Source: a virus
Direction: 5' to 3' (one strand)
Virus genome (UHGV): UHGV-0795596
Length of the DNA: 10,345 bases
Shown here: positions 1,265 through 7,106 of the stretch, piece by piece
How the letters are laid out: every line of letters begins with the position of its first letter
Numbering within the stretch: the stretch's first letter is position 1
The notes under the pieces: model-generated
Databases searched by the model: none
What the model saw: only the letters and a program-made list of their open reading frames with translations
What the model was told of the DNA's origin: nothing
Made by a program: the position numbers and the translations under genes

Positions 1265-1575
1265 TGATGGAAAATAAAATCGCGAACACATCGGTACCTG
1301 AGAACATTGTCAATTATATTCTCAGAGGCGGGTTATTAGAAGACAACAAAGAAACGTGCGATAAACTCGTTTCTCAACTACTGCCTATTCGTTCAGAATA
1401 CTGCGAAATCGTTATCTTAGGTTCCGAGTATTGTGTACGCTCTTACTGCCGACGTTTCGAAGCCTTACGCGTACCTCGTACGTTAGGTGGTGTGATCTTA
1501 TTAATCTCATCTTTTCAAGATGCCCATGTGCGTGTGGCGACCTGGATTGCCAGAGGAGGTGACAGTGGTTTTTAA
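1264..1575 (+). CDS. hypothetical Cys-rich protein (103 aa)
   Basis: ATG 1264 overlaps the upstream stop (translational coupling). Several Cys residues (CDK..., EYCEIV, EYCVRSYC) could bind metal. Confidence 0.6.
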   Translation: MMENKIANTSVPENIVNYILRGGLLEDNKETCDKLVSQLLPIRSEYCEIVILGSEYCVRSYCRRFEALRVPRTLGGVILLISSFQDAHVRVATWIARGGDSGF

Positions 1576-1861
1576 ACTAATAGAATTCTTTAAACGTAAG
1601 AAATGCGATGTCTGCGAGATCAGTGAAAAACTTATTGCTACGCAAGATGAACTGATCAAGGTACAGTCGAAATCAATCTCCGAACAATGGGAACTTTATT
1701 ACAAGCTCTGTGCAATATCTGAATTGATCTGCGAAGGTAAGCTATCTAAAGAGGGTGGCCTGGCACTGCTTGAGAAAATCTCAAAAGGTTGTCGTGCCGA
1801 GGTTGAAGGCTATAAAAGTAATTTAGTACGTGAATTCTGGGAGATTATCAATGAATCGTGA
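1565..1861 (+). CDS. hypothetical protein (about 98 aa; 113 aa if the ATG at 1520 is used)
   Basis: Strong SD GAGGAGG (1552-1558) sits 6 nt before GTG 1565 and inside the preceding CDS. The alternative ATG at 1520 would give a 56-nt out-of-frame overlap. Contains CDVC and CAISELIC motifs. Confidence 0.5.
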   Translation: MVFKLIEFFKRKKCDVCEISEKLIATQDELIKVQSKSISEQWELYYKLCAISELICEGKLSKEGGLALLEKISKGCRAEVEGYKSNLVREFWEIINES

Positions 1862-2132
1862 AACTATTGTATTTTGTCAAAACGGTGATGTAAAACAATA
1901 CCGGGGCAAGAAGTTAATTCGTACGTTAGATTATCGCGAAGCAAAACGTTTCGTTGAAGAGTGTGCGTGGTTAATGCATTACGAAGGGAACTATCGTGCC
2001 ATCTTAGAAGCACCGCGTTTAGAACGTGCAGTTGCGCAGATGGCAATAGGTAATCCTAAGAACTGTTACCTGGCCCGTAAGCCCAAATACCTACAGCGTG
2101 TCTCGCTAGGCAGTTTTATTGCGGGTTTTTAA
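1851..2132 (+). CDS. hypothetical protein (93 aa)
   Basis: ATG 1851 with GGGAG (1838-1842) at 8 nt; overlaps the upstream stop (TGA 1859-1861). The track ORF opens at GTG 1830. Confidence 0.6.
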   Translation: MNRETIVFCQNGDVKQYRGKKLIRTLDYREAKRFVEECAWLMHYEGNYRAILEAPRLERAVAQMAIGNPKNCYLARKPKYLQRVSLGSFIAGF

Positions 2133-2161
2133 TAAAAATATTTTCAGATATATATTACCTA

Positions 2162-2185
2162 GGTGAGAGTTCAGTTACTCTCACT
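2162..2185. other. hairpin (GTGAGAGT / ACTCTCAC, 6-nt loop) in an AT-rich intergenic region; possible operator or RNA structure
   Basis: Inverted repeat read from sequence, downstream of AT-rich 'aataaaaatattttcagatatatatt' and 16 nt upstream of SD AGGAG. No adjacent U-tract. Confidence 0.3.
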
Positions 2186-2213
2186 TAACGAAACCATTTT
2201 AGGAGAATATACC

Positions 2214-2708
2214 ATGAACTTCACTAGACTTGATTACACTAACGAATTAGTCGACAAAGAAAAATACAAATTCACGATTGACTTGGGTTACGGGCTGTGG
2301 GACGTAGAAAAAGATATTCTACACAAAGAATTCCGTGAGCAATTCGGTGCATTATTCTGCGCAGGATTCCGTAGAAATTCTATTGATATCGGTTATGGTG
2401 CAACACCGTATAGCGACGAAGAAATGTTTAAGCTGATAACACAGATTATCGGAACTCGTGTGGCTAAACGTTTTAATTATTCTAACGAACTTGTTTCGAA
2501 AGAACATTACAAGTTCACTGTTAGACTACCTGTTCCTCTCTTTAAAGAAGATAAGAATAGACTCTATAAAGCCCTACAAACCGAATTCGGTAAAACGCTC
2601 AAAGTAGGGTTCCGCAGTCGTAGTATCGATATCGGAATTAGCGTAGACGTGTGCAGTGACGATGACCTTTACGAATTAGTTTCGGAAGTTATCGGAAAAC
2701 ACCTCTAA
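2214..2708 (+). CDS. hypothetical protein (164 aa) built from two tandem copies of a roughly 75-aa domain
   Basis: ATG 2214 with SD AGGAG (2201-2205) at 8 nt. Residues about 8-82 and 89-163 align colinearly (Y[TS]NELV.KE.YKFT...GFR.RSIDIG...LV..VIG). Confidence 0.7.
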   Translation: MNFTRLDYTNELVDKEKYKFTIDLGYGLWDVEKDILHKEFREQFGALFCAGFRRNSIDIGYGATPYSDEEMFKLITQIIGTRVAKRFNYSNELVSKEHYKFTVRLPVPLFKEDKNRLYKALQTEFGKTLKVGFRSRSIDIGISVDVCSDDDLYELVSEVIGKHL

Positions 2709-2752
2709 GCGTAAATTAACGCTTCAGCTTGTAAAACCAAAAGGAAAATAAA

Positions 2753-3529
2753 ATGAAAACTATCGAGTTTAAGAATAGTAGTCTTTGGGCATACACGCAC
2801 ATCATTACGAGTTTCCTGAAAAACGTTACTCCACATCTTGCTTATCAGATTTATGGGAATGAGCTCACTATCGGTGGTTTTAACGAGGATGAATTAAAAC
2901 GAGCAAAAGAGTTCATTGACGATGTTCTTCGTGGTGAAGCAACGTGTTTAGTTGCATGTTACGTTGCTAAAGACAAAGGAAGATTAAACGTCATGGCAAT
3001 TTTCAGATCGTTCTCCGAAAAAGTATACGAAGTTGAGAAGATTAGTCATACCGTTTATATTGTTTACTTTAAACGTTCGGCGGAGAAAAACGCTGATAAA
3101 ATTCTGGAGTATTTCGACTGTAACCCGGGGGAAGGTATGGATGTCTATACGCTCGGTTACGATGGAGTACCTCACCGGAATAACCTTATTCGCATTGACG
3201 AACCTTTTTCAGTCAATGACGATTCCACGCCTATAGAGATGGTTCTGGTACACAAAGATCGTTTCGCGCATTACGATTCTGATACTATTCAACGTGTCCT
3301 GAACAACGTTAATATTCAGTTTTCACAAACCGAGCACTTAGTACGTGCATGTCTTAGGTCTAATGGCACAACATCATTTTTCTTCGAACGTCAAACCGTT
3401 TGGCAAACTTATCTGGCTCTGATGGAAGAACTTGATAGGATCGAGCCAGTTCAGGTTGGTGCAAATTGCTTATATTGGATAAAAACAAAAGGGTTCATGA
3501 ATGAAAACGCTCAATTCAGATTTGCGTGA
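2753..3529 (+). CDS. hypothetical protein (258 aa)
   Basis: ATG 2753 with SD AAGGA about 8 nt upstream. Leader 'accaaaaggaaaa' is shared with the CDS at 3951. The 3' end overlaps the next CDS by 29 nt. Confidence 0.7.
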   Translation: MKTIEFKNSSLWAYTHIITSFLKNVTPHLAYQIYGNELTIGGFNEDELKRAKEFIDDVLRGEATCLVACYVAKDKGRLNVMAIFRSFSEKVYEVEKISHTVYIVYFKRSAEKNADKILEYFDCNPGEGMDVYTLGYDGVPHRNNLIRIDEPFSVNDDSTPIEMVLVHKDRFAHYDSDTIQRVLNNVNIQFSQTEHLVRACLRSNGTTSFFFERQTVWQTYLALMEELDRIEPVQVGANCLYWIKTKGFMNENAQFRFA

Positions 3530-3929
3530 TTACATCCGTCAGTACCCAGCCAGTATTCCTGTACTGGCTTCGCTTACGCTTTCAGGTACTGACGTTAACA
3601 TCTTAACGGTGGAACAGTTCCACGAGATAATAAAAACCGCTTATAACTCCATTACCGCAACGTCAGTACGTAAACGTTGCGATTATCCCGACGGGGATTT
3701 CGGCACCGAGATGTTTACAGATTATGCGGTTGCATTTCTGTTAGGGCGACACTGCCTCGATAAACTTAACACTGCTGTAGAAGGGGAAACAGTGACGGAA
3801 ATAGTCAACGCTTGGCAGCAACGTATTCTGAGCGACGCTTACTGCCGACAGGCGTTAAAACGAATGTCCACAACGGCGATTACAAACGACCAGCGTGCTT
3901 TAGAGTTCTTTAAGCACAATTACAGCTAA
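3501..3929 (+). CDS. hypothetical protein (142 aa), paralog of the CDS at 5149-5580
   Basis: ATG 3501 with AAGGG upstream. N-terminal 'DLRDYIRQYPASIPVLA ... EQFHEII.T.Y' aligns with 'DIRNYIRNNPIALGVLA ... EEYQEIVNTNY' in the 5149 CDS. Confidence 0.7.
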   Translation: MKTLNSDLRDYIRQYPASIPVLASLTLSGTDVNILTVEQFHEIIKTAYNSITATSVRKRCDYPDGDFGTEMFTDYAVAFLLGRHCLDKLNTAVEGETVTEIVNAWQQRILSDAYCRQALKRMSTTAITNDQRALEFFKHNYS

Positions 3930-3950: not shown

Positions 3951-5072
3951 ATGTTTAATATCGAAATTACTCCGCTCGTTAAAACTGAAATCCGTCCGGT
4001 TCCTGAAGCACAGTTACTTGATCAACTTTATCGCATATTCCTGGATAAAGGTGTACATTTCCGTGTAGAGCAGGTCAACGATGAAAGCATCGTGTTCTAC
4101 TGGACTCACTGCAACGATTATCTTTGCGACACTATTGCGGTGGAAATCGGTGAGTTACTCAACCCGGTAGCCGAGAACGCCAAGGTAAAAGCGGCCGAGA
4201 CAGAGCAACCGAAAGTCGAAGAGCAGCAGTGGTCTATAAACAATGAAGACTCGACATACGTAAATCAATATGATGTTGAAACGATCGAGAAAATTAAAGA
4301 GGCATTAAATATCCTCTATCCCGATGCCTTATACATTAGTCAAAAATACGACATGTTAGCTTTCAGGATGAAGGAATTCGATCCTAAGATCATGAAAGCT
4401 ATTCGCATCGTCGTTGCTCTGATCGTCAAAGACGCCGTTCGACTTATTTCGGTTCGTGATATCGGAAAAGAAGACGCAGATGCAGTCATGCGTAGTGCTG
4501 TTCACGAATACAAAGAGAAAATTCGTGGGTCTAATTATGTCGACGGCACTCTAACTGTGCTTGTTGATAATGATCCTGACGTTATTAAATGGTTCGAAGA
4601 ACCGTATTCCTTTACTTACACTGGTCCAGAAGCCGAAGCGATTAATGATACCTTGACAGCTTTCTATCCTACCAAAGTAGAGACTAAACTCGAGGGCGAA
4701 AAACTCACCATTAAATGGAAATGGTGGGACGCTGCTCTTGACGAAGAAATTAGCAACCTCATTAATGAGATTGTTGACAATCGTCTACGTCTTCTGACAA
4801 TCACTACTATTGGGAAAGAAGATGCCGATACGTTTATGCGTGATATCGCTCGTTGGTTTCCTGAGAAAGTCCGTCAGTGGACTTACACAGACAATACACT
4901 TACCATTCTACTCAACTATGAACCCGGTATTATCGGAAAGTTAAAAACTCATCTGCGTGACTTGTGGTCAGTTCGTTTTCTTAAAAATAATGAGCATTCG
5001 TTCGATGCTCTCTTTAGAGAAATATCTTCTGGCGCAGGCTGCGATTGCCCTGCTTGTCAAAAATTTCGTTAA
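3951..5072 (+). CDS. hypothetical acidic protein (373 aa) with an internal duplicated domain and terminal Cys clusters
   Basis: ATG 3951 with AAGGA upstream. Repeats at roughly aa 150-217 and 266-333 share '...IGKEDAD..MR...EK.R..Y.D.TLT.L...P..I'. Cys motifs are C-x4-C (aa 54-59) and C-x-C-x2-C at the C-terminus (GCDCPAC). Followed by an intrinsic terminator. Confidence 0.75.
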   Translation: MFNIEITPLVKTEIRPVPEAQLLDQLYRIFLDKGVHFRVEQVNDESIVFYWTHCNDYLCDTIAVEIGELLNPVAENAKVKAAETEQPKVEEQQWSINNEDSTYVNQYDVETIEKIKEALNILYPDALYISQKYDMLAFRMKEFDPKIMKAIRIVVALIVKDAVRLISVRDIGKEDADAVMRSAVHEYKEKIRGSNYVDGTLTVLVDNDPDVIKWFEEPYSFTYTGPEAEAINDTLTAFYPTKVETKLEGEKLTIKWKWWDAALDEEISNLINEIVDNRLRLLTITTIGKEDADTFMRDIARWFPEKVRQWTYTDNTLTILLNYEPGIIGKLKTHLRDLWSVRFLKNNEHSFDALFREISSGAGCDCPACQKFR

Positions 5073-5148: not shown

Positions 5149-5580
5149 ATGTTTTTCGTATTAAAAGATGATATCCGTAACTACATTCGTAACAACCCTA
5201 TTGCTCTGGGCGTTTTAGCAGGTTTCTGTCGTCCAAATACTGATTTCGATTTAGTTAAGTTAGAAGAATATCAGGAAATTGTGAATACTAACTACATGCA
5301 CATCTGTAGCTGGGGTAAACGTCCTCGCGAAGAGTACCCTGTAGGTGAGTTAGGTGACACTATGCATCGTGACCAGAATCTGATGCACGAATTCGTTGAA
5401 TACACACTGGAAAATCTTAACTATCCGCTTCTGGTCGACACTGTACCAGAAATGGTTGACGAATGGTTAAGTCGTGTTTACAACGATCCTACTGCCAGCA
5501 CTCTACTGAGTCAGATGTCGCAAACTTCTCGTGATATCGACACCCGGACCCTGATGTACTTAGCACACAACGTTCGTTAA
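5149..5580 (+). CDS. hypothetical protein (143 aa), paralog of the CDS at 3501-3929
   Basis: ATG 5149 with SD AAGGAG at 8 nt. Paralogy seen by eye in the N-terminal half. Leader is nearly identical to that of the CDS at 32. Confidence 0.7.
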   Translation: MFFVLKDDIRNYIRNNPIALGVLAGFCRPNTDFDLVKLEEYQEIVNTNYMHICSWGKRPREEYPVGELGDTMHRDQNLMHEFVEYTLENLNYPLLVDTVPEMVDEWLSRVYNDPTASTLLSQMSQTSRDIDTRTLMYLAHNVR

Positions 5581-5746: not shown

Positions 5747-6595
5747 ATGTCTCTTACGTCAAAACAGAAACTGCTAAAACTCATCAACACTGAAAACAAT
5801 ATTGTTCCGCCATTGACCTTCAGTGATGTTGATATCGGCGAACCTACTGGTACTGGGGTTGATACCCAGGTGGTTCTGACTTCTAAACTCAAAGGCGATG
5901 AGTCTACTACTTTAACTGTGACTTATCATCGTCGTAATTTGCCCGAATACCTAACAGGTGAGTTGGTATTCGGTAACGACGGTGTTGTAACCGCTGCAGA
6001 TTTGCTTAATGCAATCAACGCAAAATACGATTTAAATATTCTGCCGTCGGATATCATTGATGCGAAAGTTGAAGGTGAAACCCATCAGCTTACCGCTAAC
6101 GAGAAATCCTACGAATGGTGTGGCGAGGTGACACTCACGCTACGCGACCCTATTGATCTGGCTAAATTGTTACCTGTTACTCAATTAGAAAACCTGGTAG
6201 AGTATCCGTCCACTAAGAAAGGTAACGCTGCAGTTTATTCTTACCCAATTGACTTCACCGCAGAAAAAGATTACCTCGATCCGATTACCATTAACGACAC
6301 CGTCGACCTGGCTGAGTTAGCTACTAAGCTGGATAACGTCGTTGACGAGAAATGGGTAAGTGTACCTAAGAACGCTGCTAATAACCTGTACGGTGCTAAG
6401 GTTATCTACGATGGTCCTACCGCAGGTTTCGAAGGCGCAAATACGAAGTTCACACGTGTGTTGGTGCTGACGCTCAGCCCGTTGTGTTCTAACCTGACCG
6501 GTAATCTGTTAATCCATTTTAACGGTACCGATCGTCCAAAGTCGAAGATTGAATTAGCTAAAACTAATTCGGTCTTACCGGGATTCTTAGATTAA
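5747..6595 (+). CDS. hypothetical protein (282 aa), member of a three-gene paralog family
   Basis: ATG 5747 with only a weak SD-like GAG upstream. Its N-terminal roughly 110 aa align with the CDS at 6609 (LI...N...L...V.LG.P...G..T....S.K...T..Y.R...YL...TAADLL..IN..Y.L). Confidence 0.65.
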   Translation: MSLTSKQKLLKLINTENNIVPPLTFSDVDIGEPTGTGVDTQVVLTSKLKGDESTTLTVTYHRRNLPEYLTGELVFGNDGVVTAADLLNAINAKYDLNILPSDIIDAKVEGETHQLTANEKSYEWCGEVTLTLRDPIDLAKLLPVTQLENLVEYPSTKKGNAAVYSYPIDFTAEKDYLDPITINDTVDLAELATKLDNVVDEKWVSVPKNAANNLYGAKVIYDGPTAGFEGANTKFTRVLVLTLSPLCSNLTGNLLIHFNGTDRPKSKIELAKTNSVLPGFLD

Positions 6596-6608: not shown

Positions 6609-7106
6609 ATGACCAGTCAAGAAACTATCTTCGACCTTATTAAAAAGGCTAACCCAGACGCTGAGCTTGACACCGCCAAAGTCACGCTGGGCGATCCGGT
6701 TGTGACCACCGGTACTTACAATACCGAAATTACGGTTGCGTCAATTAAGAATCTCGGTTACACTAACGAACAAACGTTCCAGTATAACCGCATTGACGCA
6801 GGTTTATATTTCCTGAACGTATTACCGAAGCTGTTGGTAGAATCTGCAACGACTACCGCTGACTTACTGCCCGTCATTAACGAGCAGTACAGCCTAACCC
6901 TTACAGAAGACGACGTGTGGGTAGAGCAGGTCGGCGAGTTACCGTTAGACGGTAGCGCAATCGAACACGGTATTTTCTTCCGCCCTGAATGTTTAACCTG
7001 GGTAGGCGGTTTTACGGTGCGCGTTGCACGTAAAACTGCTGAAGATGCTGAACCTGCGCCAAAAGCAGCTAAAGCACGTACAACTCGTGCACGAAAATCC
7101 AAGTAA
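6609..7106 (+). CDS. hypothetical protein (165 aa), paralog of 5747-6595, with a basic Ala/Lys/Arg-rich C-terminal tail
   Basis: ATG 6609 with SD AAGAGGA at about 9 nt. The C-terminal 'RKTAEDAEPAPKAAKARTTRARKSK' looks like a nucleic-acid-binding tail. Followed by a terminator. Confidence 0.7.
   Translation: MTSQETIFDLIKKANPDAELDTAKVTLGDPVVTTGTYNTEITVASIKNLGYTNEQTFQYNRIDAGLYFLNVLPKLLVESATTTADLLPVINEQYSLTLTEDDVWVEQVGELPLDGSAIEHGIFFRPECLTWVGGFTVRVARKTAEDAEPAPKAAKARTTRARKSK

What the first reader, a model, noticed from the sequence alone, without database searches (positions are those of the whole stretch)
2214..2708. Protein made of two tandem copies of a roughly 75-aa domain
Residues about 8-82 and 89-163 of the 164-aa product align end to end (Y[TS]NELV.KE.YKFT[IV]...L.KE....F......GFR.RSIDIG......D..L..L.S.VIG). 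The same duplication is visible at nucleotide level between about 2235-2459 and 2478-2702. This indicates a within-gene tandem duplication, giving a pseudo-dimeric single chain that may bind a symmetric target such as a dimeric host protein or palindromic DNA.
Basis: seen in the sequence. Interest (0 to 1): 0.4.

Follow-up and report, generated by a model that had tools for sequence, protein, structure and literature searches.

The report
Two-domain orphan protein of jumbo phage
A small jumbo-phage protein of unknown function really is two diverged copies of one ~80-residue domain, and near-identical phages carry a one-copy version at the same spot, so a domain pair is probably the working unit; this is a clean but fairly ordinary case of internal gene duplication.

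Summary
ORF 2214-2708 (164 aa) holds two gap-free copies of an ~81-residue unit: residues 5-80 against 86-161 are 42% identical (BLASTP E=1e-22; Smith-Waterman z=32.7). The DNA diagonal at offset 243 is 52% identical against a 26% background.

Both halves are predicted to have the same beta-beta-alpha-beta-beta-alpha fold, a generic ferredoxin-like sandwich. No relative turned up in Pfam, PHROGs, NCBIfam, PADLOC, PDB or BFVD. An exhaustive scan of 1.84 billion proteins found only this form and an 88-aa single-domain form.

The single-domain form occupies the same locus in 5 of 18 syntenic loci. Their flanking genes are 92-98% identical to the window, yet the cassette is saturated at synonymous sites, so it is an old allele exchanged by recombination. 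Both halves and the single form are under purifying selection (pN/pS 0.12-0.16).

The gene has its own phiKZ-type virion-RNA-polymerase early-promoter motif (TATATTAC-N4-GTG) and a possible 5' hairpin. The source is a roughly 220-228 kb relative of SPN3US-like phages that encodes a multisubunit RNA polymerase, probably the proposed genus 'Bapsvirus'.

My best reading is an early-expressed effector that works as a (pseudo)dimer. Target and function are unknown, and pseudo-twofold packing could not be verified. Interest is modest.

The parts
2129..2165 (+). phiKZ-type early-promoter motif (virion RNA polymerase class): TTAATAAAAATATTTTCAGATATATATTAC-CTAG-GTG. The predicted transcription start is G2165.
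   Evidence: It matches the published consensus of 201phi2-1 (TTAWTAVAA_HYWTTTRARR_BTATATTACDWHDGTG), of phiKZ (TATATTAC) and of N1M2/OBP (PMC7058600). It also matches the AR9 early consensus AAATATATATTAT-6N-G(+1) (PMC5312081). There is one copy in the window and one per 15-20 kb locus, always before this gene. The core is identical in Erwinia phage Machina. In the related complete genome NZ_CP134650.1 there are 12 sites, against 1.2 expected, all on the + strand and all intergenic by my reading of the annotation tables.
2165..2182 (+). Possible 5'-terminal hairpin of the transcript: GAGAGU-UCAGUU-ACUCUC.
   Evidence: Predicted MFE is -8.9 kcal/mol with z=-1.7, which is weak on its own. The stem is kept while the loop differs in L001 and L003. 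In many of the other promoter copies of NZ_CP134650.1 the GTG appears, on reading the sequences, to be followed by a hairpin of different sequence; this was not folded or counted.
2201..2205 (+). Ribosome-binding site AGGAG, 8 nt before the ATG.
   Evidence: Read directly from the sequence; conserved in L001 and L003.
2214..2708 (+). Coding sequence of the 164-aa tandem-domain protein, stop codon included.
   Evidence: There are 22 full-length orthologues at 82-92% identity, all 162-164 aa. pN/pS is 0.15.
2214..2465 (+). Domain 1 (residues 1-84; repeat core residues 5-80, nt 2226-2453). Acidic, pI 5.0.
   Evidence: The single-domain AlphaFold2 model has pLDDT 83.8 and pTM 0.74, with elements E4-7, E20-23, H30-44, E48-52, E56-61, H68-82. 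pN/pS is 0.157.
2466..2705 (+). Domain 2 (residues 85-164; repeat core residues 86-161, nt 2469-2696). Basic, pI 8.75.
   Evidence: The full-length model gives E88-95, E98-104, H111-125, E130-133, E137-143, H149-163. This is the same order as domain 1, in register at +81. pN/pS is 0.145.
2707..2724 (+). Weak hairpin AAGCGU-AAAUUA-ACGCUU, overlapping the last two bases of the stop codon. It may mark the end of the transcription unit, but this is uncertain.
   Evidence: MFE is -6.5 kcal/mol with z=-1.4, not significant. The single-domain allele carries a stronger hairpin followed by TATTATTT at the equivalent place.

Best explanation
ORF 2214-2708 encodes a soluble 19-kDa protein of a jumbo phage that infects Enterobacteriaceae and encodes its own multisubunit RNA polymerase. 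The phage is related to SPN3US-like phages and is probably the proposed genus 'Bapsvirus'.

Shown here:
- The protein is two diverged copies (about 40% identical) of an ~80-residue alpha/beta domain with order beta-beta-alpha-beta-beta-alpha. It resembles a permuted ferredoxin-like sandwich and is found nowhere outside this phage group.
- The duplication is ancient, and both copies are kept by purifying selection.
- An allelic 88-aa single-domain form sits in the same slot in otherwise near-identical genomes.
- The gene has its own copy of the AT-rich promoter motif that virion-packaged RNA polymerases of phiKZ-like phages use for early genes.

Inferred:
- The gene is transcribed within minutes of DNA injection from G2165, as a short unit that may carry a 5' hairpin.
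- The working unit is a pair of domains. The single-domain allele would act as a homodimer. The tandem allele would be a covalently linked pseudo-dimer whose halves have been free to diverge (one acidic, one basic).
- Residues invariant in D1, D2 and the single form are Y8, E11, V13, K15, Y18-K19-F20-T21, G51-F52-R53 and I57-D58-x-G60. They lie in the predicted N-terminal hairpin and strands beta3-beta4. I take them to give two equivalent surfaces that bind a host or phage macromolecule during early takeover or counter-defence.
For: - Repeat statistics.
- Same predicted secondary structure in both halves. Confident single-domain model (pLDDT 83.8, pTM 0.74).
- Orphan status: Pfam, PHROGs, NCBIfam, PADLOC and a PDB sequence profile found nothing significant. 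Foldseek gave best E=0.5 against PDB and 0.07 against BFVD. An exhaustive phmmer scan of 1.84e9 representatives found 2 clusters only. A profile search found nothing further, and there are no paralogues in a complete related genome.
- Single-domain allele at the same locus.
- Divergence: the upstream neighbour has pS 0.14-0.20 between the window and single-allele loci, and the downstream 258-aa gene 0.11-0.21, while the cassette has pS about 0.75 (saturated) and dN 0.33. Homology breaks just after the ATG and resumes 23 nt before the next gene's ATG.
- Purifying selection: pN/pS is 0.157 (D1), 0.145 (D2) and 0.12 (single).
- Promoter. Review PMC7598289 states that such motifs, centred near -10, are vRNAP early promoters in every RNAP-encoding jumbo phage whose transcripts were profiled.
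- Phage type: multisubunit RNAP beta-like subunits (phrog_3295, phrog_3015; Pfam RNA_pol_Rpb2_6) in the related genome. There is 55% aa identity to an SPN3US protein and about 69% nt identity around the endolysin. The contig sizes and hosts fit the 'Bapsvirus' (Chimalliviridae) description in PMC12768965.
Against: - No experiment and no homology links the protein to any function.
- Early timing rests on a motif match only. No transcript data exist for this phage group.
- The gene lies among tail-fibre-like (DUF7941), endolysin and other probably late genes.
- The 5' hairpin and the downstream hairpin are not individually significant.
- Inter-domain packing is not confidently predicted (pTM 0.50), so the pseudo-dimer could instead be two independent beads on a 5-residue linker.
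- The allele pattern (13 tandem, 5 single) could reflect neutral cassette exchange rather than selection on host interaction.
Confidence: 0.45

Rival explanations
1. It is a nucleic-acid-binding regulator. The two ferredoxin-like domains would present their open beta-sheet faces, in the manner of RRM, ACT or TBP proteins, to a palindromic DNA site or a structured RNA. It would control phage or host gene expression early in infection.
For: - The fold class is one often used for RNA or DNA binding. This is general knowledge; the generic fold assignment comes.
- Invariant K15, K19, K33, R53 and aromatic Y8, Y18, F20, F52 lie in or next to the predicted strands.
- D2 is basic, pI 8.75.
- The non-significant Foldseek hits include Krr1 KH tandems and IS200/IS605 transposase domains.
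Against: - The whole protein is near-neutral (pI 6.3), and D1 and the single-domain allele are acidic (pI 5.0-5.1).
- No RNP, HTH or other nucleic-acid-binding profile matched.
- All structural matches have E>=0.01 and TM<=0.56.
Confidence: 0.2
2. It is a late morphogenetic or structural accessory protein, for example a tail-fibre chaperone or a minor virion component. On this view it belongs functionally with its neighbours, and the upstream motif is not an early promoter here.
For: - The neighbourhood holds tail-fibre genes (Phage_fiber_2, Peptidase_S74, Gp38), several DUF7941 proteins, a GH108 endolysin and a DUF1353 protein.
- Tail-fibre regions are classic mosaic hot-spots, which would also explain the allelic cassettes.
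Against: - The gene has its own copy of a motif that is otherwise rare: 12 sites per 222 kb, each in front of a + strand gene by my reading of the annotation tables. Downstream genes include small unknown proteins and an XRE-type regulator.
- No similarity to known chaperones or virion proteins.
- No paralogues were found among the fibre genes.
Confidence: 0.12
3. It is a small-molecule-sensing module like tandem ACT domains. It would bind a metabolite or nucleotide signal at the interface between the two domains, for example sequestering a host immune signalling molecule.
For: - The best whole-chain Foldseek hits, though not significant, are the tandem-ACT regulatory subunits of aspartate kinase (2dt9, 2zho; prob 0.84-0.87, TM 0.30-0.33).
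- Phage 'sponge' proteins are typically small, oligomeric and orphan (general knowledge).
Against: - E-values are 0.02 or worse and TM is about 0.3.
- The strand order beta-beta-alpha-beta-beta-alpha differs from ACT's beta-alpha-beta-beta-alpha-beta.
- No ACT Pfam match.
- The model shows no evident pocket motif, and no coordinates were available to look for one.
Confidence: 0.08

Closest known systems
Tandem ACT-domain regulatory subunit of aspartate kinase (PDB 2dt9, 2zho)
   Same: A chain of about 150-160 residues made of two consecutive small alpha/beta sandwich domains that pair with each other. These are the top whole-chain Foldseek hits.
   Different: The hits are not significant (E 0.02-0.03, TM 0.30-0.33). 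The strand order differs. There is no sequence or profile similarity. No ligand-binding evidence exists.
Generic ferredoxin-like alpha/beta sandwiches, including de novo designs (4ney, 4rjv, 6wxp) and PH0987 (2phc)
   Same: A two-layer sandwich of a four-stranded antiparallel sheet and two helices. The best single-domain match has TM 0.53 with rmsd 3.4 A over 68 columns.
   Different: The first strand comes before the beta-alpha-beta-beta-alpha core rather than after it, so the order looks permuted. All matches have E>=0.5. This is a resemblance in fold class, not in family.
88-aa single-domain allele (P0024/P0039; loci L001, L002, L012-L014)
   Same: True homologue: 56% identical to D1 and 41-45% to D2. 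It has the same promoter, RBS, first residues (MNFT) and genomic slot.
   Different: It has one domain only and ends AKRAI*. Its synonymous sites are saturated against the tandem form, although the flanks are near-identical.
Early (virion-RNAP) transcription units of phiKZ, 201phi2-1, OBP, N1M2 and AR9
   Same: An AT-rich TATATTAC-type element centred near -10 with a conserved G/GTG at the start. There are several copies per genome, each in front of small genes of unknown function.
   Different: No transcript mapping exists for this phage. About 13 copies were found with a strict pattern, against 31-41 reported for N1M2, phiKZ and AR9.
TATA-box-binding protein, the textbook internal-duplication pseudo-dimer (from general knowledge, not tested here)
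   Same: A single chain built from two diverged copies of one alpha/beta repeat.
   Different: The repeat architecture and length differ. TBP did not appear among the Foldseek hits. Pseudo-twofold symmetry is not established here.

Membership tests
Internally duplicated (tandem-domain) protein | The two halves are significantly similar in sequence, in register. | tested here: met
   BLASTP E=1e-22, z=32.7, no gaps. A stand-alone homologue hits both halves.
Internally duplicated (tandem-domain) protein | The two halves adopt the same fold. | tested here: met
   The AlphaFold2 secondary-structure elements coincide at an offset of 81 residues for strand 2, helix 1, strands 3-4 and helix 2. This is at the level of prediction only.
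Pseudo-dimeric single chain (pseudo-twofold) | The two domains pack against each other around a pseudo-twofold axis. | tested here: inconclusive
   Full-length pTM is 0.50, against 0.74 for one domain. No coordinates or PAE were returned.
Pseudo-dimeric single chain (pseudo-twofold) | A single-domain relative exists that would have to dimerise. | tested here: met
   The 88-aa allele occurs in 5 of 18 syntenic loci with pN/pS 0.12. Its oligomeric state is not testable with these tools.
Any curated protein family (Pfam, PHROGs, NCBIfam, PADLOC, PDB sequences) | A profile match above threshold. | tested here: not met
   Pfam gave 0 hits. The best PHROG was phrog_24800 at E=0.007, partial. NCBIfam gave E>=0.035, far below cut-offs. 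PADLOC gave 0. The PDB profile gave E>=0.097.
ACT domain | beta-alpha-beta-beta-alpha-beta topology and an ACT profile match. | tested here: not met
   The predicted order is beta-beta-alpha-beta-beta-alpha. There is no Pfam ACT hit. Foldseek TM is about 0.3.
phiKZ-type vRNAP early promoter | An AT-rich conserved element of about 10 nt (TATATTAC type) centred near -10, with a conserved start G. | tested here: met
   TATATTAC lies at 2151-2158 and GTG at 2163-2165. It matches the published consensus sequences.
phiKZ-type vRNAP early promoter | The motif recurs genome-wide in front of operons, in a phage that encodes multisubunit RNAPs. | tested here: met
   In NZ_CP134650.1 there are 12 sites, against 1.24 +/- 1.09 expected. 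All are on the + strand and all are intergenic by my reading of the annotation tables. RNAP beta-like subunits are present.
phiKZ-type vRNAP early promoter | The transcript starts there within minutes of infection, independently of new protein synthesis. | not testable with these tools
   Needs dRNA-seq or primer extension with and without chloramphenicol.
'Bapsvirus' (proposed genus, Chimalliviridae; PMC12768965) | Genome of about 220-249 kb found in Salmonella, E. coli and Shigella assemblies, with limited similarity but synteny to Seoulvirus. | tested here: met
   Contigs are 220-228 kb and come from Salmonella, Shigella, E. coli and Enterobacter. Identity to Seoulvirus is about 69% nt and 55% aa. 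No sequence from the paper was compared directly.

The most novel reading that the evidence does not exclude
The locus is a maintained polymorphism between a homodimeric one-domain form and a fused, asymmetrically diverged two-domain form of the same early effector of a nucleus-forming jumbo phage. The two forms would differ in host-target specificity, for example against different alleles of a host factor or defence protein. That would make it a natural, population-level snapshot of dimer-to-pseudo-dimer evolution driven by an arms race.
Probability: 0.15. Interest if true: 0.55.

Novelty: new member of a known kind. Interest (0 to 1): 0.3.

Why it matters
Internal duplication that turns a homodimer into a single-chain pseudo-dimer is a well-known route of protein evolution. 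Here both states coexist as alleles in one phage population, which is a convenient natural pair for studying that step.

The protein also adds an orphan, probably early-expressed gene to the list of candidate host-takeover or counter-defence factors of chimallivirus-like jumbo phages. These phages are unexpectedly common in Salmonella, Shigella and E. coli isolate assemblies. Without a target or phenotype the practical importance stays modest.

Tried and rejected
- Known-family assignment. Pfam, PHROGs, NCBIfam, PADLOC and a PDB sequence profile all gave nothing.
- Fold-based assignment. Foldseek was run with the full-length model against PDB and with the single-domain model against PDB and BFVD. 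Nothing had E<0.001, so the ACT, KH, RecJ and ferredoxin-design hits were treated as fold-class resemblance only.
- More distant relatives. tblastn against 50,697 phage records found no match. The exhaustive phmmer scan found 2 clusters. The domain-profile search added nothing. An HMM against the six-frame translation of a complete related genome found no paralogues.
- Recent deletion of domain 2 as the origin of the single-domain allele. Rejected, because the cassette is saturated at synonymous sites while the flanks are not, and no remnant of domain 2 survives in the intergenic DNA.
- Direction of evolution. Was the single form ancestral, or derived by an old loss of D2? This is unresolved. 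The single form is closer to D1 (60%) than to D2 (41%). Three-point dN branch lengths are D1 0.17, single 0.15 and D2 0.36. That fits either an old duplication followed by loss, or faster change in D2 after duplication.
- Intrinsic terminator after the gene. The hairpin at 2707-2724 is not significant, and the consensus scan found none there.
- Sigma-70 promoter. One weak match (9/12) overlaps the phage motif, which is no more than chance.
- Chimallin identification. The 612-aa and 652-aa proteins of NZ_CP134650.1 gave no PDB sequence hit. Chimalliviridae membership therefore rests on the RNAP subunits, the SPN3US relatedness and the literature.
- Foreign base composition of the cassette. GC is 0.39, against 0.39-0.46 elsewhere in the window, so there is no signal.

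Full report
**1. The observation**

The finding's ORF runs from ATG 2214 to TAA 2706-2708, with an AGGAG ribosome-binding site 8 nt upstream. It encodes 164 residues. The mechanical ORF list also offers a GTG start at 2163, but all 22 orthologues begin MNFT at the ATG.

Residues 5-80 align with residues 86-161 without a gap: 32/76 identical, 50/76 positive, BLASTP E=1e-22. The Smith-Waterman score is 168, against 24.4 +/- 4.4 for 2000 shuffles, z=32.7.

At the DNA level, 2235-2459 and 2478-2702 are 54% identical (122/225; shuffles 59 +/- 6.5, z=9.6). The self-diagonal at offset 243 nt stands out at 51.8%, against a background of 26.3 +/- 3.2%. The repeat finder reports the best-kept 46 nt at 74% with spacing 243. 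Third codon positions are only 40% identical and dS between the halves exceeds 2. This is an old duplication, not a recent slip.

**2. What the domain is**

AlphaFold2 on the 22-sequence orthologue alignment gives pLDDT 73.5 and pTM 0.50. The element order E-E-H-E-E-H appears twice, and elements coincide at +81 residues. I then built an alignment mixing D1 copies, D2 copies and the single-domain relative. A model of one domain from it reaches pLDDT 83.8 and pTM 0.74.

The fold is a small two-layer alpha/beta sandwich of the ferredoxin-like class, with the extra strand at the N-terminus. One orthologue (P0020) has a two-residue deletion at residues 15-16, where the D2 model places the turn of the N-terminal hairpin.

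Foldseek finds nothing significant:
- Full-length model against PDB: best E=0.0096 and TM<=0.36. The hits are tandem ACT, Krr1 KH and RecJ.
- Single domain against PDB: best E=0.5, TM 0.53.
- Single domain against BFVD: best E=0.07.

Pfam, PHROGs, NCBIfam, PADLOC and a profile search of all PDB sequences are also empty. The domain is an orphan family with a common fold class.

**3. Relatives and the single-domain allele**

The word-indexed search of 5.8 billion proteins returned only 82-92% identical orthologues of 162-164 aa, plus two fragments. They lie on contigs of up to about 225 kb from Salmonella assemblies and metagenomes.

The exhaustive phmmer scan of 1.84 billion cluster representatives found exactly two clusters: the tandem form and P0024, an 88-aa protein. 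P0024 is 56% identical to D1 and 41% to D2, while D1 and D2 are 38-40% identical to each other. It hits both halves independently, at E=1.7e-31 and 4.3e-21.

Its gene occupies exactly the same slot, between the 93-aa and 258-aa genes, on contigs whose other genes are 92-98% identical in protein to the window's. I fetched loci through the conserved upstream neighbour, which does not depend on which cassette is present, and through the proteins themselves. This gave 18 syntenic loci, 13 with the tandem form and 5 with the single form (4 distinct single-form DNA sequences).

DNA homology between the two kinds of locus is near-perfect through the promoter, the RBS and the first few codons. It then drops, and resumes 23 nt before the next gene's ATG. 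No remnant of domain 2 is left in the single-allele loci.

Between the window and the single-allele loci, the upstream neighbour has pS 0.14-0.20 and pN of 0.005 or less. The cassette has pS about 0.75 (saturated) and pN 0.26. The single form is therefore an old allele moved by recombination between conserved flanks, not a recent deletion.

Both forms are functional by the usual criterion:
- Tandem D1: pN/pS 0.157.
- Tandem D2: pN/pS 0.145.
- Single form: pN/pS 0.12.

Which state is ancestral cannot be settled. The three-point dN branch lengths are D1 0.17, single 0.15 and D2 0.36. That fits either an old duplication followed by loss of D2, or accelerated change in D2 after duplication. A domain HMM finds no further copy in the window or in a complete related genome.

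**4. Genomic and regulatory context**

Megablast of the window against GenBank phages matched almost nothing. The exception was the intergenic stretch 2131-2189, which recurs in Erwinia jumbo phages Machina, Huxley and Parshik and in some Salmonella phages. That stretch reads TTAATAAAAATATTTTCAGATATATATTAC-CTAG-GTG.

It matches several published motifs:
- the early-promoter consensus of 201phi2-1 (TTAWTAVAA_HYWTTTRARR_BTATATTACDWHDGTG);
- the phiKZ core TATATTAC and the OBP/N1M2 motif (PMC7058600);
- the experimentally mapped AR9 early consensus AAATATATATTAT-6N-G(+1) (PMC5312081).

A review states that such AT-rich motifs centred near -10 proved to be vRNAP early promoters in every RNAP-encoding jumbo phage whose transcripts were profiled (PMC7598289). 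By the AR9 spacing the start would be G2165. That is the first base of a hairpin, GAGAGU/ACUCUC, whose stem is conserved and whose loop varies among loci.

A 222,441-bp circular 'plasmid' of Enterobacter ludwigii (NZ_CP134650.1) is 87% identical to the window over 87% of its length, so it is a complete relative. In it, ATATTAY-N4-GTG occurs 12 times against 1.24 +/- 1.09 expected. All sites are on the + strand. Checked against the annotation tables, all are intergenic and lie ahead of a + strand gene. All share the upstream AAAAAT..TCAGATAT context, and many appear on reading to be followed by a hairpin of different sequence. A 13th site, at 196011, has GGG in place of GTG.

That genome encodes multisubunit-RNAP beta-like subunits (phrog_3295 E=4e-254, phrog_3015 E=2e-222; Pfam RNA_pol_Rpb2_6) and a phiKZ-type major head protein. 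One of its proteins is 55% identical to an SPN3US protein. The endolysin region of the window is about 69% identical in DNA to SPN3US-like Seoulvirus phages.

The window's exact protein is deposited from Salmonella. Members of its 90% cluster come from Shigella and E. coli isolates as well, on 220-228 kb contigs. This fits the proposed chimallivirus genus 'Bapsvirus' described from bacterial assemblies (PMC12768965). L011 (CYGL01000001.1, 228.6 kb) is identical to the window in this gene, the upstream gene and the downstream gene.

The gene sits among tail-fibre-like, DUF7941, endolysin and DUF1353 genes. It carries the only early-type motif in each 15-20 kb stretch examined.

**5. How it most likely works**

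Shown: a two-copy orphan alpha/beta domain protein, old and constrained in both halves, with a stand-alone one-copy allele and its own vRNAP-type promoter motif.

Inferred:
- It is made immediately after genome injection.
- The functional unit is a pair of domains, a homodimer for the 88-aa allele and a covalent, asymmetrically diverged pseudo-dimer for the 164-aa allele (D1 pI 5.0, D2 pI 8.75).
- Residues invariant across D1, D2 and the single form are Y8, E11, V13, K15, Y18-K19-F20-T21, L28, K33, L36, G45, G51-F52-R53 and I57-D58-x-G60. Part of this set is fold core and part is a repeated binding surface.

Several features are typical of host-interaction or counter-defence genes but do not prove such a role. 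It is an early, orphan, small protein. Its locus exchanges deeply diverged alleles inside conserved flanks. It tolerates more amino-acid change than its neighbour (pN 0.045 against about 0 at similar pS).

Rivals are a nucleic-acid-binding regulator, a late morphogenetic accessory protein, and an ACT-like ligand sensor or sponge. None can be excluded. Pseudo-twofold packing remains untested because the inter-domain prediction is not confident and no coordinates were available.

**6. Comparison, novelty and verdict**

The protein works like other internally duplicated pseudo-dimers and resembles tandem ACT modules in outline, but it fails membership tests for every curated family tried. It is a new, unannotated member of a familiar kind of object. 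The coexistence of one-domain and two-domain alleles is the one feature of more than routine interest.

The function remains inferred. Interest is 0.3.

Noticed in passing
window 3951-5072 (+): The 373-aa neighbour also has an internal repeat. Residues about 103-212 against 219-328 are 32% identical over 110 residues with no gaps, E=9e-19. The L003 and L009 versions are 388 aa, and the L003 version is only 70% identical. No family match was found.
   Followed up: partly
window 3501-3929 and 5149-5580 (+); L006 2591-3016: Two paralogous genes of 142 and 143 aa (33% identical, E=5e-25; phrog_8484) flank the 373-aa repeat protein. By eye, gp145 of Erwinia phage Machina looks like a member of the same family, and it sits directly behind an identical copy of the early-promoter motif. 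The gp145 resemblance was not tested.
   Followed up: partly
L021-L025 (NZ_CP134650.1): 13377, 31120, 40222, 70476, 85261, 90471, 92855, 100527, 141464, 149255, 175845, 196011, 199581: A genome-wide family of about 13 promoter-like sites, AAAAAT..TCAGATA(T/G)ATATTAY-N4-GTG, all on the + strand and intergenic. Many appear on reading to be followed by a hairpin of variable sequence that starts at the predicted +1. Downstream genes are mostly small unknowns, plus an XRE-type regulator.
   Followed up: partly
NZ_CP134650.1 (Enterobacter ludwigii, 222,441 bp) and NZ_CP173450.1 (E. coli, 221,873 bp): Both are deposited as circular plasmids of complete bacterial genomes. NZ_CP134650.1 is a relative of this jumbo phage, with RNAP beta-like subunits, a major head protein and tail fibres. 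For NZ_CP173450.1 only one megablast match (63% of an 1,801-nt query, 85.5% identity) was seen. This fits the 'bacterial assembly-associated' lytic jumbo phages, proposed genus Bapsvirus, of PMC12768965.
   Followed up: partly
window 1520-1861, 2753-3529, 9773-10303; L001-L005, L009: Other allelic cassettes lie in the same 10 kb. o1520 is only 47-49% identical to its counterparts in L001-L005. The 258-aa gene after the finding is replaced by an unrelated 157-aa gene in L003-L005 and L009. o9773 (DUF7941) is 54-58% identical in four loci but 100% in L005. The surrounding genes are mostly 87-99% identical.
   Followed up: no
window 2725-2739; NZ_CP134650.1 13412, 15695, 70516, 141502, 175883, 200156: A short motif, (TTT)ACGACTTGT(T), or CAGCTTGTAAAACC in the window, lies about 20-25 nt before the ATG in several 5' leaders. 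It often comes right after a hairpin. The site before the gene downstream of the finding is one of them. The heptamer is not enriched genome-wide (29 sites, no strand bias), so its meaning is unclear.
   Followed up: partly
NZ_CP134650.1 about 87,100-87,300 (L022 about 38,100-38,300): An extremely AT-rich, self-complementary stretch (TATATTAT / ATAATATA repeats) lies inside a roughly 2-kb gap without annotated genes (86,429-88,426). It could be an origin-like or packaging-related region.
   Followed up: no
window 5747-6595, 6609-7106, 9773-10303 (+): A series of DUF7941 paralogues. The N-termini of o5747 and o6609 are 28% identical over 105 residues, E about 1e-4. More copies lie upstream in the related loci, next to tail-fibre and Gp38-like adhesin genes.
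   Followed up: no
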